Assembly: GCA_000004985.1 (NCBI GenBank)
Contig: GG738930.1
Reading direction: 5' to 3' (one strand)
Length of the DNA: 64,000 nt
Source: Naegleria gruberi
Lineage: Eukaryota
Made by a program: the position numbers and the translations under genes. Every line of letters starts with the position of its first letter. Within the stretch, counting starts at the first letter, position 1. Shown here piece by piece: positions 7,029-63,515 of the stretch. The notes below the pieces were generated by a model. That model ran no database searches and had not been told where the DNA came from. It saw nothing but the letters and a program-made list of their open reading frames with translations.

Positions 7029-9968
7029 ATGCCCACCAATACAATAGCCACTTCTGCTACTCCCTCAACAAACAACTCGACTGCTGCATACTCAGCAACA
7101 ACAACAAATTCCAACTCCAATTTTTTACTTCGACCCTCTTCGAGAGAACCACGAGTTATACGAAAAGCTCCAACTCCTCAGCCTTATCAATCGAAAAAGT
7201 CTGCTATCGGTCCAACTAGTGNNNNNNNNNNNNNNNNNNNNNNNNNNNNNNNNNNNNNNNNNNNNNNNNNNNNNNNNNNNNNNNNNNNNNNNNNNNNNNN
7301 NNNNNNNNNNNNNNNNNNNNNNNNNNNNNNNNNNNNNNNNNNNNNNNNNNNNNNNNNNNNNNNNNNNNNNNNNNNNNNNNNNNNNNNNNNNNNNNNNNNN
7401 NNNNNNNNNNNNNNNNNNNNNNNNNNNNNNNNNNNNNNNNNNNNNNNNNNNNNNNNNNNNNNNNNNNNNNNNNAACGAGAAGCAAAACCTCCTGGAAATT
7501 CTGAGGTTCCTCCTCTCAAGAAGAAATCTTCATCAATAACAACCACTCTAACTTCATCACCTAAGGCTGCCTCTGGAGGAGAGAAAAAAAAGGCTTCTAA
7601 TCTATCTCCCTCGCCAGTAAGAAAGAGAGGTTACGAATTGGCCACCAAGTCAAGCTCGAGTTCTTCCCTATTGAAGAATGAAGAAGGAAGTGCTGCCAAG
7701 CCATCTCAATTGAGAAAATCAGGATCGTTTACAGGGCAGAATGTCATTTCTAATAATACAAAGAAGGAAGCAAATAATGGAAAAAAGTTGGCAAGACCAA
7801 AGGGATCTGCTTTTCAAAAGAAGCGTCCTCTTGATGATAAATCTGTTTCATACAAGCTGTTGGAAGAAATTGTCAATTCAACCATTACTCAGTTTATTAA
7901 GCAAGATGGAATTTTAAGTCATAGAGACTTACGCTTAATTATTAATAAGAAGATTGCCCTCGTCAAGTCAATCCATGACAATATTATTGGATCTGAAGCT
8001 GTATTTAGAACACCATTTGGGTCGAAAAAGTATTTACCAATCACGTATTGTGATTACATTGCAACGGGGAAACCATTGAAAATGATTGAGGATTACATTT
8101 TGGAACAAGTTTTACCAACCTATGCCAACACTCATAATACAACATCTTTCACAGGTTATCAAACAACACACTTGATAGAAGATGCAAGACAAATAATTGC
8201 TCAATGTGTGAATGCCAATTTGAAAAAACCAGAAGTTGCAAGTTCAACCTGTACAGTGAGTGGGGAGTGTGCTTCACAGGAATCCAACAACACTCAGAAG
8301 GAAGACGATGAAGATGTTATTATCTTTGCTGGAAGTGGTAGTGCAGCATGTATCAATACACTCATTCACTACATTGGAATCAGACAGAAAGTGAGAGAGG
8401 CACCAAGTGAAAAGGAGCTCCCTGTTGTCATTATCTCAACACTGGAACACCACAGTAATATTCTTGCTTGGAGAGAAACTGGAGCTTGTGTGATTCAAAT
8501 TATGGAAGATAAGTACGGTAATGTCGACCTGGATGAACTACTAATTCACCTCAAACAATTCAAAGACAGTGGAAGAATGCTAATTGTCTCAATGACTGCA
8601 GCTTCAAATGTAACTGGTGTTGTGACTGATACTGAAGCTATTGCCAAGTTGGCTCACGAAAATAATGCTTGGTGCTTTTTTGACTATGCTGGAGGTGCTC
8701 CATATTTGGATATTAATGTCAATCCAAAGAATGATCCTCTTCTTGCTAAGGATGCAGTCTTTATATCCCCACACAAATTTATTGGTGGTCCAAGCACTCC
8801 TGGTGTTTTGATTGCCAAGAAGAAACTCTTTTCAAATACAGTGCCAAGTCAACCTGGTGGTGGTACAGTGACCTACAATCACAGTTATACTCCAGTTGTT
8901 GAAGAAAAGGAGGAAGGAGGCACATCAAATATTATTGGAAGCATTCGGTGTGCTCTGGTATTCAAGTTGAAGGATGAAGTTGGACCAAAATTGATTCAGA
9001 GAATTGAGGAAAAGTATAGAGATAGAGCTTTAAAGACGTGGTCAACAAATCCCAATCTTGTAATGGTTGGTCCTGGATTGGACTGTATTGGGGAGGGAAA
9101 GGTTGAAAAACTTGCCTTCTTCTCCTTTTTGGTCAAACATGAAGACTACTTTTTGCATCCATCCTATGTGAGTTTGTTGTTGAATGATCTGTTTGGACTG
9201 CAGAGCCGTCCCGGATGTTCTTGTGCTGGTCCTTACGGGGCTGAAATATTGGGCATTCAAATGACCAAGTTAAATCTTATTGAAGCTGCCATTGTTGAAT
9301 CTATCAAGTCGTCCAATAGCTTGACTTGTTTGAAGCCAGGTTGGAGTAGACTCAATTTGAACTACTTTTTCGATGATAATACTGTTCAATTTGTTTTACA
9401 GGCTGTGGACTTTGTTGCAACTCATGGCTGGAAATTATTGCCTTACTATGTTTTTGATTCAAAAACCAATGAATGGAGTCATAGAAGATTTGGAAATAAT
9501 TCACCTATGCGTTTGTCAGGATATTTTGATAACTTTACCAAATACACAGAGGAAAATAGAAAGAAACTGACAGAGGTTTCATTTTCAAATGGCTTCTTGG
9601 AGTTTGTAGATAAGAATGGAGAACTTCACAACACCGAGCCAACCACACCATTATCATACAGTAATATTTTGAAAGAAGCAGAGTCTGTATTGAGAGAATC
9701 AACAAATAACTTTAATGCACTCTACATTAACATTGAATCTGAACTTAATAATATTTTTGGTGATGAGGAGCTCGGATTAAGACATAGATATGGTAATTTG
9801 CGATGGTTCATGCTTCCTTCTGAAGCTTTAATGGACATGAAAGGTATTGAACGTGAGAAACATACAGATCCTGTGATTGTTCCAAAAGTTTACCCATCCT
9901 CAGATAGTTATATCAAGCAAAAAAAGATTGAATCAAGAACATTCCTCAAATCAAGGTTAAATAAATAA
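7029..9968 (+). CDS. class V PLP-dependent aminotransferase-like protein (cysteine desulfurase / selenocysteine lyase fold) with a long low-complexity N-terminus; spans gap 7222-7473
   Basis: ATG at 7029. The motif FISPHKFIGGPSTPGVLIAKKKLF matches the S-x-HK-x-x-GGP pyridoxal-lysine signature of class V aminotransferases. IIFAGSGSAACINTLI and ASNVTGVV..FFDYAGGAPY match the family core. The frame across the gap cannot be assessed. Confidence 0.6.
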   Translation: MPTNTIATSATPSTNNSTAAYSATTTNSNSNFLLRPSSREPRVIRKAPTPQPYQSKKSAIGPTSXXXXXXXXXXXXXXXXXXXXXXXXXXXXXXXXXXXXXXXXXXXXXXXXXXXXXXXXXXXXXXXXXXXXXXXXXXXXXXXXXXXXXREAKPPGNSEVPPLKKKSSSITTTLTSSPKAASGGEKKKASNLSPSPVRKRGYELATKSSSSSSLLKNEEGSAAKPSQLRKSGSFTGQNVISNNTKKEANNGKKLARPKGSAFQKKRPLDDKSVSYKLLEEIVNSTITQFIKQDGILSHRDLRLIINKKIALVKSIHDNIIGSEAVFRTPFGSKKYLPITYCDYIATGKPLKMIEDYILEQVLPTYANTHNTTSFTGYQTTHLIEDARQIIAQCVNANLKKPEVASSTCTVSGECASQESNNTQKEDDEDVIIFAGSGSAACINTLIHYIGIRQKVREAPSEKELPVVIISTLEHHSNILAWRETGACVIQIMEDKYGNVDLDELLIHLKQFKDSGRMLIVSMTAASNVTGVVTDTEAIAKLAHENNAWCFFDYAGGAPYLDINVNPKNDPLLAKDAVFISPHKFIGGPSTPGVLIAKKKLFSNTVPSQPGGGTVTYNHSYTPVVEEKEEGGTSNIIGSIRCALVFKLKDEVGPKLIQRIEEKYRDRALKTWSTNPNLVMVGPGLDCIGEGKVEKLAFFSFLVKHEDYFLHPSYVSLLLNDLFGLQSRPGCSCAGPYGAEILGIQMTKLNLIEAAIVESIKSSNSLTCLKPGWSRLNLNYFFDDNTVQFVLQAVDFVATHGWKLLPYYVFDSKTNEWSHRRFGNNSPMRLSGYFDNFTKYTEENRKKLTEVSFSNGFLEFVDKNGELHNTEPTTPLSYSNILKEAESVLRESTNNFNALYINIESELNNIFGDEELGLRHRYGNLRWFMLPSEALMDMKGIEREKHTDPVIVPKVYPSSDSYIKQKKIESRTFLKSRLNK
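7222..7473. other. assembly gap (N run)
   Basis: 252 consecutive n. Confidence 1.
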
Positions 9969-11818: not shown

Positions 11819-14301
11819 TTATTCCAAAATGTTGAGAGTTGGTGTTTGAGCTTGTTGTTCACATAATCGAAGTAAATGTTGGGTTGGAAGGTCATTTGGG
11901 TTGACTTGTTGATATTCTCGAAATAGAGGAATGGCTTCTTCAAATTTACCTTCAAACAGAAGAGAGCAACCTTGGTTGTAAACTCCCCATTTTAAATATC
12001 TTTCCTTCTTATTGAAATGTGAATGTAAATCTTTGGTCGAGTTAAGTAAATGAGTAGAGATTGGAAACTTACCATCATCAGTTTCTTGTTTCATTTCAAT
12101 TGAATCTCCCAATTCATATAATAAACAATCTTTTGTCAATGAATTTGACATAGAAACACTTCCAATTTCCCAATTTTCTTGGTTGAAATCATCTAGAGAG
12201 GAAAAGAAATAATCCTCCCTTAATTCTCTTCTATCCAGGAATCTAGTCTCACACCTAGTGTGGCAATATTGCTTGATGTGCTGTGTGATAATGATTGGAA
12301 CTTTGAGTTTCTTGCCAAATCTTATTATTTGATCCAAATTATGTCTCGTGCTTGAAAAAATTGTAAAGTGCTTAATGTCTTTAGTTCCAATATTTCCACA
12401 AAATGTTTTTTGAGCACAAATAGCAAATCTGAAATTAATCAATTCACAAATTTCCTCCCTCAATAGTCCACTTTCTCTCCACTTGTTTTCTTTCACGTTG
12501 GTTAACTTTTCTTGTAAAAGTTGAGCGCTGGCAACTGCTTTTTCTTCGTGATTGTTCTGGTTAATAGTAGTATTATAAGCAATAGTTAAAATATCATTCT
12601 CAAAGTTGACCAAATGGCCAGATGTAGTCCTAATCACTGTGTCCACTTGGCTAAATAAATCTCCCAACAATGAAACTAGATGAGTTGGGTTTCCTTCTAA
12701 GGATAACAACCATTCATTCAATCCTTCAATGTACATTTGATTGATACTAATCTTTCTTGGTTCCAAATAGAGAGAAAATTTGCATTTCAATTTAGATGAT
12801 TTTTTCTTACTGTCCAAAATATTAGATAATTTTGAAGCTTTCCCTCCTTCAAGTGAATTATCTTCAATGCTTGAAAATGGTTGACTTTTTTCCAATTCAA
12901 CAGAATCTGAAGTCATTGTTCTAGGTGAAAAGGAATCCAACGAAAGTCTAGTTGCAGTTTCTTGTTCTCCATTTNNNNNNNNNNNNNNNNNNNNNNNNNN
13001 NNNNNNNNNNNNNNNNNNNNNNNNNNNNNNNNNNNNNNNNNNNNNNNNNNNNNNNNNNNNNNNNNNNNNNNNNNNNNNNNNNNNNNNNNNNNNNNNNNNN
13101 NNNNNNNNNNNNNNNNNNNNNNNNNNNNNNNNNNNNNNNNNNNNNNNNNNNNNNNNNNNNNNNNNNNNNNNNNNNNNNNNNNNNNNNNNNNNNNNNNNNN
13201 NNNNNNNNNNNNNNNNNNNNNNNNNNNNNNNNNNNNNNNNNNNNNNNNNNNNNNNNNNNNNNNNNNNNNNNNNNNNNNNNNNNNNNNNNNNNNNNNNNNN
13301 NNNNNNNNNNNNNNNNNNNNNNNNNNNNNNNNNNNNNNNNNNNNNNNNNNNNNNNNNNNNNNNNNNNNNNNNNNNNNNNNNNNNNNNNNNNNNNNNNNNN
13401 NNNNNNNNNNNNNNNNNNNNNNNNNNNNNNNNNNNNNNNNNNNNNNNNNNNNNNNNNNNNNNNNNNNNNNNNNNNNNNNNNNNNNNNNNNNNNNNNNNNN
13501 NNNNNNNNNNNNNNNNNNNNNNNNNNNNNNNNNNNNNNNNNNNNNNNNNNNNNNNNNNNNNNNNNNNNNNNNNNNNNNNNNNNNNNNNNNNNNNNNNNNN
13601 NNNNNNNNNNNNNNNNNNNNNNNNNNNNNNNNNNNNNNNNNNNNNNNNNNNNNNNNNNNNNNNNNNNNNNNNNNNNNNNNNNNNNNNNNNNNNNNNNNNN
13701 NNNNNNNNNNNNNNNNNNNNNNNNNNNNNNNNNNNNNNNNNNNNNNNNNNNNNNNNNNNNNNNNNNNNNNNNNNNNNNNNNNNNNNNNNNNNNNNNNNNN
13801 NNNNNNNNNNNNNNNNNNNNNNNNNNNNNNNNNNNNNNNNNNNNNNNNNNNNNNNNNNNNNNNNNNNNNNNNNNNNNNNNNNNNNNNNNNNNNNNNNNNN
13901 NNNNNNNNNNNNNNNNNNNNNNNNNNNNNNNNNNNNNNNNNNNNNNNNNNNNNNNNNNNNNNNNNNNNNNNNNNNNNNNNNNNNNNNNNNNNNNNNNNNN
14001 NNNNNNNNNNNNNNNNNNNNNNNNNNNNNNNNNNNNNNNNNNNNNNNNNNNNNATAACAAACACACTCATTAATGTCAAACTCGAAATTACTATAAGCAT
14101 ACAATTTCTTATAGAAATTTGGCAATTGCTCGCCGATAAGAAGAAGACGGAAGAGTTTGTATCCGAATTATTGTATTTTCTATTCCAATCATTGTCTTCA
14201 TAACTAAATCTCCCATTAGAATAAATATCATGTTGAGGTAAATCAAAGGCAAGAGGTAAAACCTTACGAGAGGACGTTGATGATCGCCTTGTGAGTGGCA
14301 T
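11819..14301 (-). CDS. membrane protein with a cyclase-homology domain and a C-terminal TPR-like region; spans gap 12975-14053
   Basis: ATG at 14301. The N-terminal ORF runs into the gap with a hydrophobic stretch. The post-gap ORF contains FRFAICAQKTFCGNIGTKDIKHFTIFSSTRHNLDQIIRFGKKLKVPIIITQ. This aligns to the C-terminal half of class III cyclase catalytic domains (l.lRiGihsG.v..G.iG.....y.v.G..VN.AsR...........i.vs). A KWGVYNQGCSLLFEGKFEEAI helical-repeat tail follows. Frame continuity across the gap is unknowable. Confidence 0.5.
12975..14053. other. assembly gap (N run)
   Basis: 1079 n. Confidence 1.
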
Positions 14302-14545
14302 ATTATTACTAAATTAAATTTCCCTTACTTTTACCTCTTCTACCAGTAGTCCGAGATTAATTTCCTTTGATGACCAAGAGAAAAAATATTGCTAAATTTC
14401 AAAGCAGAAAAGCGCGAGGTTGTGTTGCACCTTTTTTTTTGAGGTTGTTTTAGGTGCATATCTCGCCTTAATAAGGAAGAGCGAGAGGAACAAGAGTATG
14501 AGGAGATTTTAGAAATGACATTTAGATATAGATTGTTTATGTAAA

Positions 14546-17500
14546 TTAAGCTTCTGTTTTTGAGGGAGAGATTGTTGGTGAAGGGTTGAGATTGTTGGTT
14601 GTTTCTGGTAAATTTTGTTGGGTGTTGGATGTTTGATTGAGTTTGAGAACAGTCAATTCGTCAACTGAACTTGATTCTAATAGATTTGTTGGAGATTGGG
14701 AGTCTATCTTGAGTTCTTGAATTTCTTGAACTGTTGGCAATGGGTTTGCATGATGTTTGTCCTTTAACAGGTATGTTTTCATTTCACCCTTTCCTTTGAC
14801 ATAGATTGATTCTCTTTCTTCAAATTCATATCCCAAATCGAATACTCTTTCATAGGTTGCTCTTGAAATTTGAATTCTTCCTGGAACACCTGTTGATTCC
14901 ATTCGAGAGGCTGTGTTGATTGTATCACCCCACAAATCGTAAGCAAACTTTTTAGTTCCAATAACACCTCCAACACATGGTCCTGTGTGCATTCCAATTC
15001 TCAAATTCACTTCCTTTCCAAATTTAATATTGAAATCTCTCAAGAATGAATAAACTGAGATTGCAAACTTTAACATTCTCTCAGGGTGGTCAGATGATTT
15101 TGAAGAGTGAGTTCCTGAAACTGCAAAGTAAGCATCTCCAATAGTTTTGATCTTGTCAATCAAATATTTCTCAGTCAACTTGTCAAATTCATTCACAATT
15201 GTGTTCAACATCATCACCAATTGATCTGCTTCCATTCCTGAAGACATTTTGGTGAAACCAACCATATCAGAAAAGAAAATCGTAACATCTGGGAACTTTT
15301 CTGCGATATAGGTTTCTCCTTGTTTCAATCTATTAGCAACTGGCAATGGCAAAATATTCAACAATAACTCTTCACTTTTCTTCTTTTCCTCACCTAGCAA
15401 CAATGAATGTTTCTTCAATTGAGTAACATCCTTCACAAAACAGGACAAGATTGGTTTACCAAGGTACTGACTGATAGAAATCGACACAAATGCAGGGAAA
15501 GTGGTCTTGTTCTTTCTCAATCCTGTCACTTCGAATGAATCTGCTGAAACACCTGTTTCCTCATTGCAAACTTTCATGGAATCAATAAGAACTGTAATCT
15601 TTTCCACATTCAATTCTGTAAATAGAGTTTCTAATCGAATTCCCAAAATCTCTTCCTTCTTATAACCAAACATATCTTCACTGGAAGGATTGAACATTAC
15701 AACCTCTCCCTTTGGATTACAGATAATGCTTCCATCTACACCACTATTCAAAATTGATCTTGTCATGTCCATATTTTCATCATCCACTTCAAGTCCAGAC
15801 ATGACTGCATTTCTTCTCTTTATCAATTTCTTCAATTTTTGAGCTGAGGATGGAACTCTATAGTTTAAAATATAGTCAATCATATCTGGTATCATGTCAA
15901 CAACATCTTTAGGAATATAATTCAACATTATTCTTAATGATTGAATTTCTCTAAAGAGATCCATCATCGCTAGATAGGAAAGCCAACCAAACACAAGAAC
16001 TGCTAATGAGCCCAGAATGGTTGAAATGATTGCCAAGTAATCTTCTGATTGTTTTGTATTCTGTACATATGTGCTTGTGAAATCGTAAATAAGCTGAACT
16101 GCAACCAGAGCTGGATAGTACAGATATGTAAAGTACTGATCAGTTTCGTATGATTTTGTGTAAAACCTTGCTTTTAAATCCTCATTAATCTCTGCTGCTA
16201 GATCTTGAAAAGAGTGAATCAACTTTTCTAAACCATAACATGAAACTCTTGTCTTCACCAAACTGTCTGGGAGAATATCCAAAGCCGGACCACTTGTGTA
16301 ATTAACCATTGAAGTATTTGAATCACACTTATAGGCAAGTAATTTGTCAATATCAGAATATTTTCCAAAAAGAGAATTGGAATAGCCCAACTCTGGAGCT
16401 CCTCTTACAGCATAAGACCAGGACATTGTAATATTCATTAATTGCTTTTGATTCCGCAAGTGTAACTCATCGGGAGTGTAATCTGACATATTTGATGCAA
16501 TAATCATCTCGGCCAACTTGAAATTCACAGAAGTTACTGAACTAAGAACGTAGTTTACAGAAGCAGCAGTTTTCATTGTAATAAACTGATTCTGTTTGTT
16601 GAGTTGGAATTCGTATATCTGAATAGGACTCACCAATGCTACTACAAAAAATGTGATTGCAGTGTATATGATAATCTTATTCTTTGGACTTAGTACAGTT
16701 TCTCCGTAATCTCCAGTTTTAGTAGATGTCAAAGTGTGATATAGCTTACCAACCTCATCCTTTTGAATCTTTCTAAAGATATGAAAAATGACCTGTCTTA
16801 TTTGAACAAAGTATTGACTCAACATGGATATATAGAACCCAACCAATACAAAATAGCATCCCAATAGAATTCCTGAACTCCATAAAAACACTTGTGAGAG
16901 GGTATCTGCTCTTTCCATGGAAAATGTCAAAAAGTATTGGCAAAACCCATCAAATGCATCGGTCATCGTCTCTCTATTGTACAGGAAGAACAAGACTGGG
17001 AAGTTTGTGGCAGTGTTATTCAATTGAACAGGATAAGAAAACTGACTGATAACTGTTGGAGCTTGAGCTGCAAACATTGCAATGAAATCCAACACTGACA
17101 CATTCATGGTTGTGTAAACCTGAGAGGATTCTCCAACTACCTGCTTGTTTGGAATTTTGTAAGTCCACTTTTGAGAGATGAAGTCATCTGTAATAGATGG
17201 AAAGAATGACTCTGTGGATGCACTCATCACATTCTTAACTAAATTTAAAACATAGTTCGCTTGCAGTGTTGCCAAATGCTGAACTGGTCCAGCAGTGGTT
17301 TCGTTCAAGTACCTGTATCTTGCTTGCAATGTTCTAACATGATTTGCCATAATGCTTGGAGCACCAGCTATTGAGCAAATCTTTTCCTCTAGTGCTGTTC
17401 TACTCGTAAACTCTGATGAAACAATCAAACTAAGAATCAACATGAATAGAATAATGAGAATGGAAATTACAATAAATGGAAGAAAAAGCATAAAGAATGA

Positions 17501-18076
17501 TTTCCTGCGCTCTGGCATGTTGATAGAATTTCTGTAGAATGCTTCCTCCCTCATAGTTTCTTCCATTCTTGCACTGATTGAATCCCAATTATCCACAACT
17601 TCATCGAATGAAACAGCATTCTTCATGGCAGCATTGGACTTACTGTGCTTCATTAATTGAGATGTAGAAGTAGCATAGGGAAGAACTCTATTTTCTGGTT
17701 GTTTTTTCTTAGTTGACTTTGCTTTCTCTTCCTCAATTTGGTTGGCTTCTTCATAAAGTTCTGCAGCCATTTCCAGTTCAAATTTGAAAGTTTCTAAGAA
17801 GTGAGCATATGCTCTCATTAAAGTCTTGTTATTCATATTGGAACTCATACTATTCTTGTATGCATTTTCACAATAATGTGTAAGATTGTGAGCTTGTCTG
17901 TTGATGTCCTCTAATTTTGTCTCTGAAGGATTTTCGCTTGAAAGCTCTTTAAAGAAATCCTGATGTAGATTAATGATCTTTGCTTGTCTCTTCTCAAGTT
18001 TTTCCAATATTTTTTGAAGTTCAAAACTCAAGGCATCACCATCTTGTGATTGCACTTCAATTTCCTTACTTCTCAA
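14546..18076 (-). CDS. membrane-anchored PAS-domain adenylate/guanylate cyclase (class III catalytic domain); the true 5' end lies in gap 18117-19306
   Basis: The canonical catalytic motifs are present: VTIFFSDMVGFT, KTIGDAYFAVSG, RIGMHTGPCVGGVIG and WGDTINTASRMES. A PAS-like segment (ICNPKGEVVMFNPSSEDMFGYKKEEILG) precedes the catalytic domain and a hydrophobic multi-TM block lies upstream. The track's first codon at 18076 is TTG. Hand translation upstream (..RHSPSFVQLFHFYLRSKEIEV) stays open to the gap edge and matches the paralogue's N-terminus, so the real ATG is inside the gap. Confidence 0.8.
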   Translation of the reverse strand: MRSKEIEVQSQDGDALSFELQKILEKLEKRQAKIINLHQDFFKELSSENPSETKLEDINRQAHNLTHYCENAYKNSMSSNMNNKTLMRAYAHFLETFKFELEMAAELYEEANQIEEEKAKSTKKKQPENRVLPYATSTSQLMKHSKSNAAMKNAVSFDEVVDNWDSISARMEETMREEAFYRNSINMPERRKSFFMLFLPFIVISILIILFMLILSLIVSSEFTSRTALEEKICSIAGAPSIMANHVRTLQARYRYLNETTAGPVQHLATLQANYVLNLVKNVMSASTESFFPSITDDFISQKWTYKIPNKQVVGESSQVYTTMNVSVLDFIAMFAAQAPTVISQFSYPVQLNNTATNFPVLFFLYNRETMTDAFDGFCQYFLTFSMERADTLSQVFLWSSGILLGCYFVLVGFYISMLSQYFVQIRQVIFHIFRKIQKDEVGKLYHTLTSTKTGDYGETVLSPKNKIIIYTAITFFVVALVSPIQIYEFQLNKQNQFITMKTAASVNYVLSSVTSVNFKLAEMIIASNMSDYTPDELHLRNQKQLMNITMSWSYAVRGAPELGYSNSLFGKYSDIDKLLAYKCDSNTSMVNYTSGPALDILPDSLVKTRVSCYGLEKLIHSFQDLAAEINEDLKARFYTKSYETDQYFTYLYYPALVAVQLIYDFTSTYVQNTKQSEDYLAIISTILGSLAVLVFGWLSYLAMMDLFREIQSLRIMLNYIPKDVVDMIPDMIDYILNYRVPSSAQKLKKLIKRRNAVMSGLEVDDENMDMTRSILNSGVDGSIICNPKGEVVMFNPSSEDMFGYKKEEILGIRLETLFTELNVEKITVLIDSMKVCNEETGVSADSFEVTGLRKNKTTFPAFVSISISQYLGKPILSCFVKDVTQLKKHSLLLGEEKKKSEELLLNILPLPVANRLKQGETYIAEKFPDVTIFFSDMVGFTKMSSGMEADQLVMMLNTIVNEFDKLTEKYLIDKIKTIGDAYFAVSGTHSSKSSDHPERMLKFAISVYSFLRDFNIKFGKEVNLRIGMHTGPCVGGVIGTKKFAYDLWGDTINTASRMESTGVPGRIQISRATYERVFDLGYEFEERESIYVKGKGEMKTYLLKDKHHANPLPTVQEIQELKIDSQSPTNLLESSSVDELTVLKLNQTSNTQQNLPETTNNLNPSPTISPSKTEA

Positions 18077-20529
18077 ATAGAAATGGAATAGTTGGACGAA
18101 ACTTGGACTATGTCTCNNNNNNNNNNNNNNNNNNNNNNNNNNNNNNNNNNNNNNNNNNNNNNNNNNNNNNNNNNNNNNNNNNNNNNNNNNNNNNNNNNNN
18201 NNNNNNNNNNNNNNNNNNNNNNNNNNNNNNNNNNNNNNNNNNNNNNNNNNNNNNNNNNNNNNNNNNNNNNNNNNNNNNNNNNNNNNNNNNNNNNNNNNNN
18301 NNNNNNNNNNNNNNNNNNNNNNNNNNNNNNNNNNNNNNNNNNNNNNNNNNNNNNNNNNNNNNNNNNNNNNNNNNNNNNNNNNNNNNNNNNNNNNNNNNNN
18401 NNNNNNNNNNNNNNNNNNNNNNNNNNNNNNNNNNNNNNNNNNNNNNNNNNNNNNNNNNNNNNNNNNNNNNNNNNNNNNNNNNNNNNNNNNNNNNNNNNNN
18501 NNNNNNNNNNNNNNNNNNNNNNNNNNNNNNNNNNNNNNNNNNNNNNNNNNNNNNNNNNNNNNNNNNNNNNNNNNNNNNNNNNNNNNNNNNNNNNNNNNNN
18601 NNNNNNNNNNNNNNNNNNNNNNNNNNNNNNNNNNNNNNNNNNNNNNNNNNNNNNNNNNNNNNNNNNNNNNNNNNNNNNNNNNNNNNNNNNNNNNNNNNNN
18701 NNNNNNNNNNNNNNNNNNNNNNNNNNNNNNNNNNNNNNNNNNNNNNNNNNNNNNNNNNNNNNNNNNNNNNNNNNNNNNNNNNNNNNNNNNNNNNNNNNNN
18801 NNNNNNNNNNNNNNNNNNNNNNNNNNNNNNNNNNNNNNNNNNNNNNNNNNNNNNNNNNNNNNNNNNNNNNNNNNNNNNNNNNNNNNNNNNNNNNNNNNNN
18901 NNNNNNNNNNNNNNNNNNNNNNNNNNNNNNNNNNNNNNNNNNNNNNNNNNNNNNNNNNNNNNNNNNNNNNNNNNNNNNNNNNNNNNNNNNNNNNNNNNNN
19001 NNNNNNNNNNNNNNNNNNNNNNNNNNNNNNNNNNNNNNNNNNNNNNNNNNNNNNNNNNNNNNNNNNNNNNNNNNNNNNNNNNNNNNNNNNNNNNNNNNNN
19101 NNNNNNNNNNNNNNNNNNNNNNNNNNNNNNNNNNNNNNNNNNNNNNNNNNNNNNNNNNNNNNNNNNNNNNNNNNNNNNNNNNNNNNNNNNNNNNNNNNNN
19201 NNNNNNNNNNNNNNNNNNNNNNNNNNNNNNNNNNNNNNNNNNNNNNNNNNNNNNNNNNNNNNNNNNNNNNNNNNNNNNNNNNNNNNNNNNNNNNNNNNNN
19301 NNNNNNCAGTCAGCTCTCTCCATAGAAGTATCCAAAAATGATCTACAAAACCAATCAAAAGCCTCAGACATTGTCTCTCTATTGTAGAGGAAGAAAAGAA
19401 CTGGAAAATTTGTTGAAGTGTCGTTCAGTTGGGCAGGAGAGCTCAATTGAGAAATTGCTCTACCAGCATGATTTTCAAACATGTTTAAAAATTCCAAAAC
19501 AGATACATTCATGGTAGAATAGAGTTGTGTAGATTCTCCTACAACTTGTTTGTTTGGAACCTTGTACAAAAACTTTTGGGCAATAAAATCTTCAGTAACA
19601 GCTGGGAAGAATGATGAGGAAGATGCACTCAATACATTATTAATCAATGTTGTAACATAGCTGGTCTGAACAGTAGCTAAGGCATGAGCGGTACTTGCTG
19701 AAGATTCATTCAAATATCTATACCTAGCTTGAATAGAACGAATGTGATTGGCCATAATGCTTGGAGCACCAGCTATTGAGCAAATCTTTTCTTCTAACAC
19801 TGTTCTACTGGTAAATTCTGACGAAAAGACCAGAGACATTGTTAATAAAATTAATAAAACAAGGAATGAAACAATCACAAACGGTAAAAATGTGAAATAA
19901 TAGGATTTTCTGTGTTCTGGAGTGTTGATTGAATTTCTATAGAAGGCTTCTTGTTTCATTGATTCTTCCATTCTTGCACTGATCGAATCCCAGTTATCTA
20001 CAACTTCATCGAATGATACTCCATGTTTCAGAGTGTCTGATTTCCTTCTTTTCATAAGTGATGACTCTTCTGAGGCACTGGTATAAGGAACTACTCTATT
20101 ACTTTTTGAATGAGACTGCTTGTTGGTTTTGGATTTCTCTTCCTCAATTTGATTAGCCTCCTCATATAATTCATTGGCCACTTCAATCTCAAATCTAAAT
20201 ATCTCCAAAAAGTATGCGTAAGCTCTCAACAGGGTCTTGTTGTTCATATTGGTATACATGCAATTCTTGTATGCATTTTCACAAAATATTATCAAATTAT
20301 TGGATTTTCTGTTAATCTTTTCAAGTTTGTCCTCAGAAGGATTTTCACTGGAAAGCTCTTTGAAAAATTCCTGGTGCAATGCCAGTATCTGAGATTGTTT
20401 CTTATCGAGTCTCTCTAATAATTTTTTAACTTCATAACTAACATTAGCATAATTCTCAGAGTTGGCTTCAATCTCTTTGCATCTCAAAAAGTAATGGAAA
20501 ACTTGAACGAAATTTGGGTTTTGTTTCAA
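18073..20529 (-). CDS. PAS-cyclase paralogue, N-terminal part (C-terminal catalytic part lost in gap 18117-19306)
   Basis: About 70% identical to the gene at 14546..18076 over the N-terminal coiled region, the TM block and the FPVLFFLYNRETM segment. The first codon reported at 20529 is TTG, and an in-frame TGA lies 6 codons upstream. The conserved N-terminal block therefore has no in-frame ATG. The annotated 3' end at 18073 is a TGA that actually lies inside the downstream paralogue's 5' coding extension, in a different frame. Confidence 0.6.
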   Translation of the reverse strand: MKQNPNFVQVFHYFLRCKEIEANSENYANVSYEVKKLLERLDKKQSQILALHQEFFKELSSENPSEDKLEKINRKSNNLIIFCENAYKNCMYTNMNNKTLLRAYAYFLEIFRFEIEVANELYEEANQIEEEKSKTNKQSHSKSNRVVPYTSASEESSLMKRRKSDTLKHGVSFDEVVDNWDSISARMEESMKQEAFYRNSINTPEHRKSYYFTFLPFVIVSFLVLLILLTMSLVFSSEFTSRTVLEEKICSIAGAPSIMANHIRSIQARYRYLNESSASTAHALATVQTSYVTTLINNVLSASSSSFFPAVTEDFIAQKFLYKVPNKQVVGESTQLYSTMNVSVLEFLNMFENHAGRAISQLSSPAQLNDTSTNFPVLFFLYNRETMSEAFDWFCRSFLDTSMERADXXXXXXXXXXXXXXXXXXXXXXXXXXXXXXXXXXXXXXXXXXXXXXXXXXXXXXXXXXXXXXXXXXXXXXXXXXXXXXXXXXXXXXXXXXXXXXXXXXXXXXXXXXXXXXXXXXXXXXXXXXXXXXXXXXXXXXXXXXXXXXXXXXXXXXXXXXXXXXXXXXXXXXXXXXXXXXXXXXXXXXXXXXXXXXXXXXXXXXXXXXXXXXXXXXXXXXXXXXXXXXXXXXXXXXXXXXXXXXXXXXXXXXXXXXXXXXXXXXXXXXXXXXXXXXXXXXXXXXXXXXXXXXXXXXXXXXXXXXXXXXXXXXXXXXXXXXXXXXXXXXXXXXXXXXXXXXXXXXXXXXXXXXXXXXXXXXXXXXXXXXXXXXXXXXXXXXXXXXXXXXXXXXXXXXXXXXXXXXDIVQVSSNYSISI
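18117..19306. other. assembly gap (N run)
   Basis: 1190 n. Confidence 1.
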
Positions 20530-22211
20530 ACTCTTCTCATTATTTCAACTGCAAGGGCTGTGTTTCCACTTTCTGTGGTGCTAGCTGGGGCATTATTACC
20601 AACAAAGCTTGCTGCCATGATTAACAAGTTGACATCTGTAACACTACGTAAGTTTGCTGATTTGATGAATTTTCTTGCCAACTCCAAATCTGAACCTTCT
20701 CCACCCTTTGTTTTCAATGTGTTAAATTTAATGAACATGATAATACTCTTGTTCATCTTTTTTGTTGTCAATTCAGAGACAATATTGGATACGGAATGGC
20801 TGTCTGAAAAGTATTCGTTCAATACTGTTCTTATCGATCTCATCTTTAGTCTTGTATAAATTTCCATAATCACATATCCAAGTATGAAACCAACAATCAT
20901 CAGAGCCAATGTTATTCCTGTTAAGATTCCTCCAATTAATTCCTTGTCAATGGTTGAATCTCTTGTGACAAGCAAACAAACAAGAGGTCCTAAACTTCCC
21001 AAAGCCCTTGAAACTCCAACTCCACAATAAACACAATTCTCCCACCTTCTGTAGAAGGGTATTGCCACAAATAGTGAAACAATAAAGAGAATGCTCAACA
21101 AGAATTTGATACCAGCGGAAATAACACACAACTCATAAGTTAAAACTACTGTCAGTATGATACCAACTTGGTTATTGAGTAACAAGAGACATAGTGGATA
21201 AATTCTATCTAGTACGAATACTGTCCTGGTTCCTCTTGTTGGAATAGTTTCATATACAAGATAAAAACCTAATACAGAAATACCTAGTGTCAAAATTGCC
21301 CCTATACATCCAATAACAATGAGACCAATGTTAACAGAGGCTGTAAATAATGGTGTTGTGAAATGTTTCATATAAATTTCGGTTGATGATGATGTGGAGA
21401 AGATATTCATGTTAACAGCTAGAGGGTATGTATGTACAAAAAGCATGAATGGTGAAAGTATAATTACAATTATTATGAATAGTCTGGATACCATTTTGAT
21501 TTTGTCATTGTATCTGCTTCCATTCTTGATTCCTACTCTGTATGCATAAAAGCAAATCAAACATAGAATTTCAACGAATAGCCATATTGCAGAAAATGTA
21601 TAAACTAGCTCATAAGGATAATATTGTATTCCAAAATCAAGAGGAAAATGCAAAACTCTCCAAATCCAACCACCAACAACACCCCACATTGCTCCACTAC
21701 TCTCCTCACTCGCAGTCGTTGTTATTGAACAGGTTATCAAAGAATAGTATATCATGTAAATATGTAACATAATCCATGCGACTGCTTGGTATTTGCTCTT
21801 GATGAAAGATTCATTCCTCTTGAAAGAAACAATAAATTCAAATATGGAATTACGAAATGCTAGTAATGGTGATTGAGGATTTGTAAAGGCTGATGATGAA
21901 TAACTGGTATTACTTCCCACATAGGAAGCTTCACCCTTATTCATTGGTTGATTTGCAACTTCTTCATCTTGCGAGTTTTTGATGGGTTTTCCCCAATATT
22001 GGTCATCATCTTCATCTTCCATCAAATTCTTTGTGCTTCCATGTGAGGATGGTGTTGGAATAGGTGAGGAATGATGTTGTTGATGTTGAGAATGATGTGG
22101 ATCTAAATGATGCACAGATGTATTGCTCTTGTCTCGCCTTATCGAGATGGGCTGAGGATCATCACCATTGCCCAATGTTGTTGTTGTTGTATTGATGTGA
22201 GGGTGAGACAT
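20526..22211 (-). CDS. polytopic membrane protein (about 10 predicted TM helices) with a His/Gln-rich N-terminus
   Basis: ATG at 22211. Repeated 20-25 aa hydrophobic segments. No family recognised. The stop TGA (20528-20526) overlaps the TTG at 20529-20527 that the track used as the start of the next ORF. Confidence 0.5.
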   Translation of the reverse strand: MSHPHINTTTTTLGNGDDPQPISIRRDKSNTSVHHLDPHHSQHQQHHSSPIPTPSSHGSTKNLMEDEDDDQYWGKPIKNSQDEEVANQPMNKGEASYVGSNTSYSSSAFTNPQSPLLAFRNSIFEFIVSFKRNESFIKSKYQAVAWIMLHIYMIYYSLITCSITTTASEESSGAMWGVVGGWIWRVLHFPLDFGIQYYPYELVYTFSAIWLFVEILCLICFYAYRVGIKNGSRYNDKIKMVSRLFIIIVIILSPFMLFVHTYPLAVNMNIFSTSSSTEIYMKHFTTPLFTASVNIGLIVIGCIGAILTLGISVLGFYLVYETIPTRGTRTVFVLDRIYPLCLLLLNNQVGIILTVVLTYELCVISAGIKFLLSILFIVSLFVAIPFYRRWENCVYCGVGVSRALGSLGPLVCLLVTRDSTIDKELIGGILTGITLALMIVGFILGYVIMEIYTRLKMRSIRTVLNEYFSDSHSVSNIVSELTTKKMNKSIIMFIKFNTLKTKGGEGSDLELARKFIKSANLRSVTDVNLLIMAASFVGNNAPASTTESGNTALAVEIMRRV

Positions 22212-22735: not shown

Positions 22736-23349
22736 NNNNNNNNNNNNNNNNNNNNNNNNNNNNNNNNNNNNNNNNNNNNNNNNNNNNNNNNNNNNNNNNN
22801 NNNNNNNNNNNNNNNNNNNNNNNNNNNNNNNNNNNNNNNNNNNNNNNNNNNNNNNNNNNNNNNNNNNNNNNNNNNNNNNNNNNNNNNNNNNNNNNNNNNN
22901 NNNNNNNNNNNNNNNNNNNNNNNNNNNNNNNNNNNNNNNNNNNNNNNNNNNNNNNNNNNNNNNNNNNNNNNNNNNNNNNNNNNNNNNNNNNNNNNNNNNN
23001 NNNNNNNNNNNNNNNNNNNNNNNNNNNNNNNNNNNNNNNNNNNNNNNNNNNNNNNNNNNNNNNNNNNNNNNNNNNNNNNNNNNNNNNNNNNNNNNNNNNN
23101 NNNNNNNNNNNNNNNNNNNNNNNNNNNNNNNNNNNNNNNNNNNNNNNNNNNNNNNNNNNNNNNNNNNNNNNNNNNNNNNNNNNNNNNNNNNNNNNNNNNN
23201 NNNNNNNNNNNNNNNNNNNNNNNNNNNNNNNNNNNNNNNNNNNNNNNNNNNNNNNNNNNNNNNNNNNNNNNNNNNNNNNNNNNNNNNNNNNNNNNNNNNN
23301 NNNNNNNNNNNNNNNNNNNNNNNNNNNNNNNNNNNNNNNNNNNNNNNNN
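22736..23349. other. assembly gap (N run)
   Basis: 614 n. Confidence 1.
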
Positions 23350-26523: not shown

Positions 26524-26684
26524 GTTTAATAAAAATCTATTCGAAAAAAGTTTAGTTTCGAATTGGATTCTTTTCCTTTTTACTAAATTTGATTCAAACA
26601 TACCAATTTTGGAGTCGTACTGGAACCTGTAATTAGATGTTGTGATAATTGGAAAGTTTTGAAATTGCGTTTCCAATAAAAAAA

Positions 26685-60990: not shown

Positions 60991-63515
60991 ATGCCAAAAG
61001 TCACACCAGTCTTGGAAGAGAAACAAAACGGCATTGAATATCTTCAAGAAGCAACTTCATGCAATCAATCACTTCTCGAGGAATCTCAAATCAAACAAAG
61101 AAATTCCATTCTCTCATGCATTCTCAGTATCAGATTATTCCTCATTGCCATGATCACTCTAGTTGTCCTATTAACTTCAGTTTCGATTTGGGTAACTGCC
61201 TACACGATGAATGAACAGGCAGCAATGGAACAAGTCAATATCGTTATTGATAATATGAATGAAAAGATTGCAACTTTTGTAAATGGTCAACTGATTCCTG
61301 CCAAATATGTTGCTGATTCAATGGTTAATGATTATCATAGAGGATACATTGATTTAACAGATTCAATTAGAGAATACTTGTTTGATAGGATTAGTACGTT
61401 TGGTGTTTCGGTTACTAATCTGTGTTTCGGTGAAGGAGGTTACAATACTTTGTTTGCTTATTCAGTTTATGCTGATGGAAGTATAACATATGGAACAAAG
61501 AGACAAAATGAGAATCTTTTCGTATACAAAGCCAATAGAACTACTGGTGAATACTACATTGACAAGCCCACTATTAATAATATGACCTATACTATTAGAA
61601 ATACTGATTATTACACTGAATCAATTGCTCTGGTTGACAAGTATCCAAATGGAGCTTTTGGAGCACCTTACAAAGTGTTGAATGGTCCTCAGTCCACCTA
61701 TTGGAGCACTCCTGTGTATAATAGAACTGAATTACCACAAAAGAAGAATAGAATTGGTTTTGCAAAGATTAATATTTCATTGGCAGCCATAGCTCAATTT
61801 CTATCAAATGTCAAAGTCATGGAACGTGGTTATGTGATTATTTCAGAATATGGAAATGATTATGTCATTGGAAGTTCTCTCAATATTCCAGGTATTGACG
61901 ATCGCAGAATCAAAATGACCAACATTACCACAAGAAGCGCAGGAAGCATCATGTCAAAGTTATTGAACTTCCAAAAGGTAAATTCACTCAATAACACTGC
62001 AAAAATAGTCACTTCACTCATGAATGAGAATGGTGAAAGCTATCTAGTTGCTTCCTCTCCCTATATCTTTCATAATTTACAATGGAGAATGACTCTCATC
62101 TTTGACGAAACTGAAATTAAAAAGGGAATCATTCAGAGCAGTTATGTAATCCTTGGAGTTTCTATTGGAGTTAGTATTTTGGGAATTATTGTGAGTGTTG
62201 TTATTGGTTGGTCAGTTACTAGTCCGTTTTTTAAATTGCAAACAGATTTCAAAAATATTGAAATTCTTGATCTTGTCAATGTCAAACCAAGAAGTTCCAT
62301 ATTTAGTGAAGCAAATGCAATTTATTCGAGTTTAACAGAGACTGTAAGATGGTTGGCGGAGATTAGAGCATTCATTCCTGACTCGATTTTGAATCAATTA
62401 GAAAGAACAAAATTTATGAAAGAAGGTAATCCTGAGAATAAGAAGGATAACTCAACCTTTGATCCTGGAATGTCATACATAGCTAGTTCACAAACATTGC
62501 AACGGGTAGGTGAACTGAAAAGTGGAATTTCGAATTATTCCAGTAGAATTTCCAAAACTTCTTCAGGAAAACCACAAGATGTCACAAATAATTTATTCAA
62601 AATTGGACTTTCCTTAAGAGATTGCTCAATAATTTACATGACAGTTCCAAATCTTGATGAAAATCATTATGACCTTTCGTCTGGTTTACTTTCCAATTTA
62701 ATTTCCAAAGCACTCACTTCCATTTCAAGTATTTGCAAAACGTGTAAAGCAGATTTCCAAATCAAGTCATTTAATGAATTTATGATTTTATTCTCAGATA
62801 AGAAATCATCTGTAACCGCATTGGAAACCTCTTTAAAAATTCTCACCTTACTGAACTCGTTGAATGAGAGTATTCAAAGGATGGCNNNNNNNNNNNNNNN
62901 NNNNNNNNNNNNNNNNNNNNNNNNNNNNNNNNNNNCCCCACTATTATGGGAAATGTAGGAAGTAAGCAGATGCGTTACTTTGCCACCTTGGGTCCAGTCA
63001 TGAATAGAGCAAAGGAATTGAATGAAATTGCTCAAATGTTGAACGTTCAAGTTATTGTTGATCAGACTACTGCACAGTTGACCAAAGATTCTGTCATTTT
63101 TAGACCTGTGGAGAGGATTCTAGAGGATTCTCAGCGAATTCAAACAGTATATCAACTCTTACGAAAGAATACTATTAGAGATGATGAATGGTTATATGAA
63201 CTGGAACAAAAGAAAGCAAATGCTGAGTTTGATCAGTTCAATTCAGACTTCAGTAAGATTTTTGAGTCAGTTGATAATGAATTCGGCAATGAGAATGGAT
63301 TAGACTCTGTACTCTCTAGATTGACTGAATATTCACAGAGTAATCCAAACGATCTGGTCATAAAGAGATTAGAACAAATCCTCTCCGAAAGTAAGTTAAA
63401 GGGTGAGTCCTTCTTCACCAAATATCACACACAACTGGCTAAGCAATTAGTTAGCTATGTGAGACCTGGTGAGCTAATTCAATCTTCAATGATTTATCAA
63501 AGAGATGGACAATAA
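60991..63515 (+). CDS. receptor-type sensor + degenerate cyclase-homology protein, paralogue of 35858..38233; spans 50-nt gap 62886-62935
   Basis: ATG at 60991. Co-linear similarity to 35858..38233 from the N-terminal TM (LIAMITLVVLLTSVSIWVTAYTMNEQAAMEQV vs LIIVITLLVIATALSIWIAAYKVNEQAALEAV) through to the C-terminal DEWLYELEQKKANAEF block. ORFs 60991..62958 and 62946..63515 are one gene split by the small gap. Confidence 0.6.
62886..62935. other. assembly gap (N run)
   Basis: 50 n. Confidence 1.

What the first reader, a model, noticed from the sequence alone, without database searches (positions are those of the whole stretch)
11819..20529. Three cyclase-domain genes packed head-to-tail on the minus strand, including a tandem PAS-cyclase pair
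Within 8.7 kb, three minus-strand genes carry class III cyclase catalytic or homology domains. The gene at 14546..18076 is a full membrane PAS-cyclase with intact FSDMVGFT, KTIGDAY and GDTINTASRMES motifs. The gene at 18073..20529 is its roughly 70%-identical tandem paralogue, truncated by a gap. The gene at 11819..14301 has a different architecture: TM, cyclase-homology domain and TPR-like tail. Together with the two receptor-type cyclase-homology genes at 35858 and 60991, this gives five cyclase-domain genes in 64 kb. That is a striking local concentration of cAMP/cGMP signalling genes. It suggests recent tandem expansion and a lineage that uses a very large cyclase repertoire.
Basis: partly seen in the sequence, partly recalled or inferred. 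Interest (0 to 1): 0.6.

Follow-up and report, generated by a model that had tools for sequence, protein, structure and literature searches.

The report
Naegleria cyclase and pseudo-cyclase gene cluster
This stretch of the amoeba Naegleria gruberi's genome holds one intact PAS-regulated adenylyl cyclase, an old duplicate of its membrane half whose catalytic part is unseen and probably absent, and three receptor-like genes with dead cyclase domains, which is ordinary for an organism known to have about a hundred cyclases.

Summary
The window is a gappy Naegleria gruberi NEG-M scaffold. Gene A (14546..18115, minus strand) is a real membrane PAS–class III adenylyl cyclase. It scores 8e-60 against Pfam Guanylate_cyc and has all six catalytic residues.

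Gene B (19307..20529, plus the upstream ORF 20526..22211) is a true paralogue. It is 65.5% identical in protein and 69% in DNA, but only its TPR and membrane half is visible. No PAS or cyclase domain is seen. Synonymous sites are saturated (pS 0.75, dN 0.23), so the duplication is ancient, not recent, and not an assembly duplicate.

The 1,190-N gap is too small for two complete genes, which would need at least 4.0 kb. It matches the 1,143 nt needed to finish only the membrane module. B therefore probably lacks its own cyclase. The GenBank model (1,602 aa) is a B/A chimera.

Gene C and the genes at 35858 and 60991 carry cyclase-homology domains. Custom HMM, hhalign, an exhaustive phmmer search and a fold match all agree. 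They have lost most catalytic residues, so they are receptor-type pseudo-cyclases, and one has a dCache-like ectodomain.

The large Naegleria cyclase repertoire is already published. Interest is low.

The parts
14546..18115 (-). Gene A, visible part (1,189 codons, open to the gap edge). Order: TPR_TmcB, then 4 predicted TM segments with two large loops, then PAS, then a class III adenylyl cyclase.
   Evidence: Translation. Pfam. TM scan. It is 100% identical to residues 428-1602 of the N. gruberi predicted protein P0001.
14762..15304 (-). Gene A cyclase catalytic domain, with all six canonical residues: metal Asp, Lys, metal Asp, Asp, Asn, Arg.
   Evidence: Pfam PF00211 8e-60. Residue table. 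Best PDB relatives are AC9 at 2e-73 and Rv1625c at 2e-47.
15419..15736 (-). Gene A PAS domain. It is closest to FixL haem-PAS, but the proximal His is Ile.
   Evidence: Pfam PAS_9 8.4e-16. FixL 1.2e-9, with 'h' aligned to 'i'.
17717..18067 (-). Gene A TPR_TmcB domain.
   Evidence: Pfam PF25474 3.3e-14, 53 bits against a cut-off of 27.
18117..19306 (.). Assembly gap (1,190 N). It hides the junction between B and A.
   Evidence: The GenBank model P0001 jumps it as an 'intron'. Length argument.
19307..20529 (-). Gene or module B, visible part (407 codons): TPR_TmcB (20128-20481), one TM segment (19825-19881) and a loop. It is paralogous to A residues 1-404.
20526..22211 (-). ORF1, 561 aa, with about 7 predicted TM segments (20883-21608). 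It is the probable N-terminal part of B. It joins B across a frame change near 20530, either an intron or a 1-nt error.
   Evidence: Its first 175 aa are used in model P0001.
11819..12973 (-). Gene C, C-terminal part: a degenerate cyclase-homology domain (about 12194-12811) and one TPR-like motif (about 11852-12010).
   Evidence: Pfam 16.7 bits, E 0.0057. Exhaustive phmmer gave 58 hits below 1e-10 and reached the true cyclase P0072 at 5.4e-9. Custom CHD HMM 64.5 bits. hhalign 99.2%. TPR: PP5 at E 0.013.
12975..14053 (.). Assembly gap (1,079 N). It hides gene C's ectodomain and second TM segment.
   Evidence: Four full-length homologues predict 1,170-1,250 nt here.
14054..14301 (-). Gene C, N-terminal 82 codons with a TM segment at residues 64-82.
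   Evidence: It aligns to TM1 of the N. lovaniensis homologue P0015.
35858..38233 (+). Gene D. Order: TM (35963-36019), dCache-like ectodomain (36020-36946), TM (36947-37003), degenerate cyclase-homology domain (37370-37927), helical tail.
60991..63515 (+). Gene E, a paralogue of D (42% aa identity). Its cyclase-homology domain is interrupted by the 50-N gap at 62886-62935.

Best explanation
This is an ordinary nuclear locus of the amoeboflagellate Naegleria gruberi.

**Gene A.** It encodes a multi-pass membrane protein whose cytoplasmic end is a PAS domain followed by a class IIIa-like cyclase domain. All catalytic residues are intact. By analogy with homodimeric class III cyclases such as Rv1625c, two chains should pair their catalytic domains head-to-tail. 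That pairing would form two active sites that convert ATP to cAMP. The Lys/Asp specificity pair points to ATP as the substrate. The PAS domain and the TmcB-like TPR/membrane module would act as regulators. This mechanism is inferred, not shown.

**Gene B.** Directly upstream lies an anciently duplicated copy of the TPR-plus-membrane module, preceded by a roughly 7-TM ORF. Both copies have been kept under purifying selection. The catalytic half of B has never been sequenced, and the estimated gap is too small for it. My estimate is about 55-60% that B has no PAS-cyclase of its own. In that case the locus is one of two things:
- a single giant gene with an internally duplicated TPR+4TM module, which would leave the membrane topology unchanged; or
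- a cyclase-less TmcB-like gene followed by gene A.

**Genes C, D and E.** These belong to a Naegleria-expanded family of single-ectodomain receptors. Their intracellular cyclase-homology domains have lost the first metal-binding Asp and the transition-state Arg, and at least one more canonical residue each. They are predicted not to make cyclic nucleotides. They most likely act as ligand-regulated dimerisation or scaffold modules.
For: **Organism**
- The best hit is 100% identical to an N. gruberi predicted protein.

**Gene A**
- Pfam hits: Guanylate_cyc 8e-60, PAS_9 and TPR_TmcB.
- All six catalytic residues are present.
- The closest solved structures are AC9 and Rv1625c.

**Gene B**
- Identity to A is 65.5% aa and 69% nt. 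Codon-position identity is 0.73/0.85/0.50.
- pS is 0.749 and dN is 0.228, with no stop codon in 407 codons.
- No closer relative of A or B exists in 5.8 billion proteins.

**Gap arithmetic**
- 1,143 nt are needed to complete the membrane module, against 1,190 N.
- At least 4,038 nt are needed for two full genes.
- Gap C is 1,079 N against 1,170-1,250 nt expected. Gap E is 50 N against about 42-54 nt expected.
- The GenBank model is a chimera.

**Genes C, D and E**
- Custom HMM of 25 canonical domains: 64.5, 57 and 26 bits.
- hhalign: 99.2% and 98.1%.
- Gene C's exhaustive phmmer search reaches many true cyclases.
- Family members are named adenylate/guanylate cyclase in Naegleria species.
- The D model matches CyaB with TM 0.79 and rmsd 3.0 Å.
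- The D ectodomain matches only dCache sensor domains.
- Catalytic residues are lost.
Against: - The junction between B and A lies in a gap. Gap sizes are estimates, and a repeat-induced collapse could hide several kb. Two complete tandem genes therefore remain possible.
- The frame change between ORF1 and B near 20530 is unexplained. It could be an intron, a sequencing error or a real frameshift.
- No expression or enzymatic data were available.
- The inactivity of C, D and E is inferred from residue loss only. The alignment around the first metal Asp and the Asn is not certain to within one residue.
- The dCache model has only moderate confidence. Mean pLDDT is 61.6, and the membrane-distal module is below 50.
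Confidence: 0.8

Rival explanations
1. One reading: two complete, independent tandem PAS-adenylyl cyclase genes, each about 1,750 aa (7TM + TPR + 4TM + PAS + cyclase). The gap would be under-estimated by at least 3 kb.
For: A's frame is open and homologous to B right up to the gap edge, so A continues upstream. An unrelated Logan protein, P0002 (1,572 aa), has a single-unit 7TM+4TM+PAS+cyclase layout. That layout suggests what a complete gene looks like. Both copies are under purifying selection.
Against: It needs at least 4,038 nt where 1,190 N are recorded. Two other gaps on the same scaffold are accurate to within about 15%. No second PAS or cyclase sequence is visible anywhere in the window or in the protein database.
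Confidence: 0.35
2. B is an assembly duplicate or an allelic copy of A.
For: The scaffold is very gappy, with 10 N-runs in 64 kb.
Against: Nucleotide identity is only 69%. Synonymous sites are saturated and the substitution pattern is codon-structured. Alleles or mis-assemblies would be nearly identical.
Confidence: 0.01
3. The GenBank model P0001 (1,602 aa) is correct as annotated, with long introns at 20482-21686 and 18074-19722.
For: It is the deposited model.
Against: Its 'introns' discard 386 open codons of ORF1 that hold about 7 TM segments. They also discard 139 open codons of B that are about 65% identical to coding sequence of A, and they span an assembly gap.
Confidence: 0.03
4. C, D and E are active cyclases that use non-canonical catalytic residues, or that become active as heterodimers.
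For: C keeps the second metal Asp (END motif) and probably the Asn. D and E keep the Lys and have Glu at the second metal site. Family members are named 'adenylate/guanylate cyclase' in databases.
Against: All 24 canonical reference domains keep Asp, Lys, Asp, Asn and Arg. C, D and E each lack the first metal Asp and the Arg. No pairing among them, or with A, reconstitutes a full site on the degenerate side. That last point is my inference from the class III mechanism.
Confidence: 0.05

Closest known systems
Homodimeric class IIIa adenylyl cyclases (Mycobacterium Rv1625c/Cya; the C1/C2 domains of mammalian AC9, AC8 and AC5)
   Same: Gene A's catalytic domain aligns end to end: AC9 at 2e-73 and Rv1625c at 2e-47. 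It keeps both metal Asp, the Lys/Asp adenine pair, and the Asn and Arg.
   Different: It sits at the end of a TmcB-like TPR/multi-TM module with a PAS domain, rather than on a 6-TM anchor. It has a single catalytic domain per chain, unlike mammalian ACs.
The expanded Naegleria adenylate/guanylate cyclase repertoire (Fritz-Laylin et al. 2010, cited from memory; Naegleria pangenome, PMC9928731)
   Same: Same organism and same gene family. 'At least 81 cyclases' are reported for the genus. Members of gene C's family are already named adenylate/guanylate cyclase.
   Different: Those counts do not separate catalytically intact from degenerate domains. This locus is annotated only as 'predicted protein', with a chimeric model.
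Bacterial sensor-cyclases with extracytoplasmic sensor domains (CHASE2-cyclase-TPR such as P0072; dCache chemoreceptors Mlp24, PctA and Tlp3)
   Same: The layout is TM, ectodomain, TM, cyclase-homology domain, then a TPR-like tail. Gene C hits P0072 at 5.4e-9. The D ectodomain model matches dCache ligand-binding domains at E 1e-9 to 1e-6. Upadhyay et al. 2016 noted one Naegleria Cache 'bacterial-type adenylate cyclase' (PMC4822843).
   Different: C, D and E have lost catalytic residues. Pfam Cache and cyclase models do not detect D or E.
FixL/DosP haem-PAS sensors
   Same: They are the best solved relatives of gene A's PAS domain (1.2e-9).
   Different: The haem-ligating proximal His is Ile in gene A. 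Haem-based O2 sensing of the FixL type is therefore not expected.
Dictyostelium TmcB (Pfam PF25474, TPR_TmcB)
   Same: A and B both match the TmcB TPR model above its cut-off, at 53 and 47 bits against 27. In both, multi-TM regions flank it.
   Different: Here the module is fused to PAS and a cyclase. Homology outside the TPR region was not tested. No literature on TmcB was found in the library.

Membership tests
Class III nucleotidyl cyclase (Pfam PF00211), gene A | Profile match above the curated cut-off | tested here: met
   202 bits against a cut-off of 21.9, E 8e-60, profile positions 3-182 of 183.
Class III nucleotidyl cyclase, gene A | Two metal-binding Asp, the substrate-specifying Lys and Asp, and the transition-state Asn and Arg | tested here: met
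   D, K, D, D, N and R are all present. The same columns are invariant in 24 reference domains, except the specificity position, which is D or T.
Class III nucleotidyl cyclase, gene A | Dimeric head-to-tail catalytic core and measurable cAMP synthesis | not testable with these tools
   Needs biochemistry.
Class III nucleotidyl cyclase, gene B | Presence of a cyclase domain | not testable with these tools
   Only TPR_TmcB is found in the visible 407 codons. The rest lies in the 1,190-N gap, which is shorter than the 2,355 nt required.
Class III cyclase-homology domain, gene C | Profile match above the Pfam cut-off | tested here: not met
   16.7 bits against 21.9, E 0.0057.
Class III cyclase-homology domain, gene C | Homology to bona fide cyclase domains by sensitive sequence methods | tested here: met
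   phmmer over 1.84 billion proteins reaches P0072 (Pfam cyclase 2.6e-25) at 5.4e-9, and many other true cyclases. Custom HMM 64.5 bits. hhalign 99.2%, E 1e-19.
Class III cyclase, genes C, D and E | Catalytic residue set | tested here: not met
   First metal Asp: C=Tyr, D=Arg, E=Thr. Arg: C=Gln, D=Asn, E=Glu. Lys is lost in C. The second Asp is Glu in D and E.
Class III cyclase-homology domain, genes D and E | Fold and profile homology | tested here: met
   No Pfam hit. However, PDB phmmer gives OaPAC at 4.2e-5, hhalign gives 98.1% and E 1e-13, and the custom HMM gives 57 and 26 bits. The AF2 model matches CyaB 3r5g at TM 0.79 and rmsd 3.0 Å.
PAS domain, gene A | Profile match above the cut-off | tested here: met
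   PAS_9 58.6 bits against 27.
FixL-type haem PAS, gene A | Proximal His that ligates haem | tested here: not met
   The His of FixL aligns with Ile.
dCache sensor domain, gene D ectodomain | Long N-terminal helix plus two PAS-like modules between two TM segments | tested here: inconclusive
   All top 50 Foldseek hits are dCache ligand-binding domains (E 1e-9 to 2e-6, TMt 0.53-0.72). The model's mean pLDDT is only 61.6, with the distal module below 50. There is no Pfam Cache hit.
TPR repeat, gene C tail | Profile match above the cut-off | tested here: inconclusive
   TPR_1 18 bits against 27.8. PP5 TPR at E 0.013. At most one repeat.
Recent tandem gene duplication (A/B) | Low synonymous divergence between copies | tested here: not met
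   pS 0.749, which is saturated. Third-position identity is 0.50.

The most novel reading that the evidence does not exclude
C, D and E, together with their dozens of Naegleria relatives, would form a distinct class of eukaryotic receptor pseudo-cyclases. Each would combine a dCache-like or Cys-rich ectodomain, a catalytically dead cyclase-homology domain and a TPR-like tail. They would signal without making cyclic nucleotides, for example by pairing with and regulating intact cyclases such as gene A. Their clustering with A would then reflect functional coupling. In parallel, the A/B locus would be one giant protein of about 2,550 aa and 15 TM segments, with an internally duplicated sensor module.
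Probability: 0.1. Interest if true: 0.5.

Novelty: new member of a known kind. Interest (0 to 1): 0.2.

Why it matters
It matters little for biology at large. Naegleria's very large cyclase repertoire has been known since its genome paper, and tandem or local duplicates in such families are expected. Three points are practically useful:

1. The deposited gene model for this locus is a chimera of two paralogous units joined across an assembly gap. Any cyclase census or domain-architecture survey that uses it is wrong here.
2. Three of the five 'cyclase' genes in the window are predicted to be catalytically dead. Published cyclase counts for Naegleria probably mix enzymes with pseudo-enzymes.
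3. At least one of these receptor types has a dCache-like ectodomain that profile searches miss. That hints that Cache-type sensing is more common in Naegleria than the single case reported.

Tried and rejected
- **Word-indexed homologue searches.** Queries were gene A, gene C and ORF1+B. They returned essentially only the N. gruberi models themselves. No orthologue or alternative assembly was found that could close the gaps.
- **Exact-product look-ups.** P0001 and ORF1 are not on record.
- **Literature on TmcB.** The search found nothing relevant. A search for pseudo-cyclase terms gave no hits. The 2010 genome paper is not held.
- **Sequence similarity between the membrane regions of A/B and P0002.** None was found; only the TM layout is alike.
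- **Conventional intron joining ORF1 to B.** The only in-frame GT..AG candidate I found by eye is 95 nt (20531-20625), with a poor donor (GTTAAT). This is unresolved.
- **Assembly duplicate or allele for B.** Rejected on 69% nt identity.
- **FixL-type haem sensing.** Rejected because the proximal His is replaced by Ile.
- **LOV-type PAS.** Rejected by eye, because there is no NCRFL-type Cys motif.
- **Chance clustering.** With roughly 81-108 cyclases in about 41 Mb (my memory for genome size and the 108), five in 64 kb is improbable if the genes are independent (P about 1e-6). Counting the three independent founders (A/B, C, D/E), about 0.2-0.5 such windows are expected genome-wide. The concentration is therefore mostly explained by two old local duplications.
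Full report
**Source and state of the sequence**

The window is AT-rich (about 35% GC) and contains ten N-runs.

The long minus-strand ORF at 14546..18076 is 100% identical to a 1,602-aa 'predicted protein [Naegleria gruberi]' on a 158,571-bp contig. The other ORFs in the window are ordinary eukaryotic genes:
- a split protein kinase
- a class V aminotransferase
- F-box, chromo, RGS and BTB proteins
- a Mem_trans transporter
- EGF/REJ proteins
- Hsp70

The N-runs are real assembly gaps. The GenBank model of gene A jumps the 18117-19306 gap as an 'intron'. The model of gene C starts just after its gap.

**Gene A**

Translated from the gap edge (18115) to the stop (14546), it gives 1,189 residues. 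Pfam hits are as follows:

| Domain | Residues | Score |
|---|---|---|
| TPR_TmcB | 17-133 | 53 bits, cut-off 27 |
| PAS_9 | 794-899 | 8.4e-16 |
| Guanylate_cyc | 938-1118 | 8e-60, nearly full length |

I aligned gene A with 24 bona fide cyclase domains. It has both metal-binding Asp, the Lys four residues before the second Asp, the Asp seven residues before the Asn, and the Asn and Arg. This is the residue set of an ATP-specific, homodimer-competent class III enzyme. That reading rests on established knowledge of Rv1625c and the mammalian ACs. The nearest solved structures are AC9 (2e-73), AC8, AC5 and Rv1625c (2e-47).

The PAS domain is closest to FixL (1.2e-9), but the haem-ligating His aligns with Ile. 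FixL-type haem sensing is therefore not expected, and the PAS ligand is unknown.

A hydropathy scan gives four TM segments, at residues 214, 409, 481 and 694, with two large loops that carry N-glycosylation sequons.

The true start of gene A is not 18076. The frame is open to the gap edge, and the 13 extra codons are homologous to B.

**Gene B**

Only 407 codons (19307..20529) are visible. They align without frameshift or stop to A residues 1-404. Identity is 65.5% aa and 69.2% nt. Per-codon-position identity is 0.73/0.85/0.50. Nei-Gojobori counting gives pS = 0.749, which is saturated, and dN = 0.228.

B is therefore a real paralogue kept under purifying selection. The duplication is ancient. 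B is not an allele or an assembly duplicate, and the expansion is not recent.

Pfam finds only TPR_TmcB in the visible part. No PAS or cyclase domain is observed. The reported 3' end at 18073 is an artefact. The gap length is not a multiple of three, so the 'tail' is gene A's 5' region read out of frame.

Upstream, a 561-aa ORF (20526..22211) with about seven TM segments abuts B in another frame. Three observations suggest that ORF1 and B belong together, joined by a short intron or a 1-nt error:
- Homology between A and B continues upstream of B's first possible start codon.
- B has no nearby Met.
- The distance from the last TM of ORF1 to the next TM (about 335 aa) matches that in P0002 (324 aa). 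P0002 is an unrelated 1,572-aa protein with a 7TM+4TM+PAS+cyclase layout.

The junction itself is unresolved.

The deposited 1,602-aa model is a chimera. It joins 22211..21687 (ORF1), 20481..19723 (B) and 18073..14549 (A). In doing so it discards 386 open codons of ORF1 and 139 conserved codons of B.

**Is there a second PAS-cyclase?**

B's last visible residue corresponds to A residue 404. The sequence needed beyond that point is as follows:
- Reaching the residue just before the PAS domain needs 1,143 nt.
- Finishing a PAS-cyclase needs 2,355 nt.
- An ORF1-like N-terminus for A needs another 1,683 nt.

The gap is recorded as 1,190 nt.

Gap estimates on this scaffold can be checked twice:
- Gene C's gap is 1,079 N. 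Four full-length homologues predict 1,170-1,250 nt between TM1 and the start of the visible C-terminal part.
- Gene E's gap is 50 N. Its paralogue D predicts about 42-54 nt.

Both estimates are good. I therefore consider it more likely than not (about 55-60%) that B has no catalytic half. Two layouts would then fit:
- One gene in which the TPR+4TM module is duplicated in tandem. An even number of TM segments would leave the topology unchanged.
- A cyclase-less TmcB-like gene followed by gene A.

Two complete genes (about 35%) would require the gap to be under-estimated more than three-fold, for instance by a collapsed repeat. Only gap closure can decide this.

**Gene C**

The two sides of the gap are in different frames. 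The N-terminal 82 codons (14054..14301) end in a TM segment. The C-terminal 384 codons (11819..12973) give only sub-threshold Pfam hits: Guanylate_cyc at 16.7 bits and TPR_1 at 18 bits.

An exhaustive phmmer search of 1.84 billion representatives gave 159 hits, 58 of them below 1e-10. The strong hits are a Naegleria family from N. lovaniensis, N. fowleri and N. gruberi. Some are named 'adenylate/guanylate cyclase' or 'guanylate cyclase domain-containing'. The weaker hits include many bona fide cyclases, for example the CHASE2-cyclase-TPR protein P0072 at 5.4e-9. P0072's own Pfam cyclase score is 2.6e-25.

A custom HMM of 25 canonical domains scores gene C at 64.5 bits. Profile-profile comparison gives 99.2% probability and E 1e-19. 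The domain is therefore homologous to class III cyclases.

It is degenerate, however:
- The first metal Asp is Tyr.
- The Lys is Asn.
- The Arg is Gln.
- Only the second Asp (the END motif) and probably the Asn remain.

**Genes D (35858) and E (60991)**

They are 42% identical paralogues. Pfam sees nothing in either. The cyclase-homology domain is supported by the following:
- PDB phmmer gives OaPAC at 4.2e-5.
- The custom HMM gives 57 and 26 bits.
- hhalign gives 98.1% and E 1e-13.
- BLAST to C-family proteins gives P0033 at 7e-21.
- An AlphaFold model has a CHD with pLDDT of about 80-90. It superposes on CyaB at TM 0.79 and 3.0 Å, and on Cya2 and Rv1625c.

The catalytic residues are again lost.

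A separate model of the ectodomain has a mean pLDDT of 61.6. Its top 50 Foldseek matches are all dCache ligand-binding domains of chemoreceptors and histidine kinases. This is suggestive but not firm. [quoted passage not shown]

**Is the concentration remarkable?**

The Naegleria pangenome paper reports at least 81 cyclases. I recall about 108 cyclases and a genome of about 41 Mb from the 2010 genome paper, which is not held in the library.

On those numbers, five independent cyclase-family genes in 64 kb would be very unlikely (P about 1e-6). But they reduce to three founders (A/B, C, D/E). About 0.2-0.5 such windows are then expected genome-wide. The cluster is modest and is explained by two old local duplications. 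A proper test needs the whole genome, which I could not scan.

**Verdict**

- One intact PAS-adenylyl cyclase is present.
- B is a genuine but ancient paralogue of the membrane half only, with no visible cyclase and probably none hidden.
- Three genes are receptor-type pseudo-cyclases.

The inference of recent expansion is refuted. The inference of a large cyclase repertoire is correct and already published. This is a new member of a known kind, and interest is low. The practical yield is a corrected gene structure and the distinction between active and dead cyclase domains.

Noticed in passing
window 14549-22211 (-): The GenBank/JGI model P0001 (1,602 aa) is a chimera of ORF1, module B and gene A. 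Its two long 'introns' skip open, conserved coding sequence and an assembly gap.
   Followed up: yes
window 20520-20630 (-): The reading frame changes between the 7-TM ORF1 (stop at 20526-20528) and module B. One in-frame GT..AG candidate intron of 95 nt (20531-20625, donor GTTAAT) would read ...SVTDVN|FLKQNPNFVQ. A 1-nt sequencing error is equally possible.
   Followed up: partly
window ~11940-12065 (-): The GenBank model P0010 of gene C removes an in-frame stretch of about 41 aa as an intron, although the ORF is continuous. The removed stretch contains the TPR-like motif.
   Followed up: partly
window 36020-36946 (+), and the equivalent part of 60991-62274: The ectodomain of gene D is predicted to fold as a double-Cache (dCache) sensor. 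Pfam detects nothing there. The literature reports Cache in only one Naegleria protein.
   Followed up: partly
window, all N-runs (7222-7473, 12975-14053, 18117-19306, 22736-23349, 33500-34191, 39634-40449, 42742-43505, 47872, 47892-48367, 62886-62935): There are ten assembly gaps in 64 kb, most of them inside genes. Where they can be checked against homologues (genes C and E), the recorded gap lengths are accurate to about 15%.
   Followed up: partly
window 15419-15736 (-): Gene A's PAS domain is most similar to the haem-binding PAS of FixL and DosP but has Ile in place of the proximal His. Its cofactor or ligand is unknown.
   Followed up: partly
window 2405-4709 (-) and 26649-29195 (+): There are further signalling genes nearby. 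One is a protein kinase split into at least two exons (Pfam Pkinase positions 4-122 and 166-263 in separate ORFs). The other is an 848-aa RGS-domain protein.
   Followed up: no
proteins P0011-P0061: Gene C's family of degenerate cyclase-homology receptors is large. There are 58 cluster representatives below 1e-10, from N. gruberi, N. fowleri, N. lovaniensis and environmental assemblies. It has conserved FEND, HExKA and CGNxGT motifs and a Cys-rich ectodomain. A few relatives carry NIT or ankyrin domains instead.
   Followed up: partly
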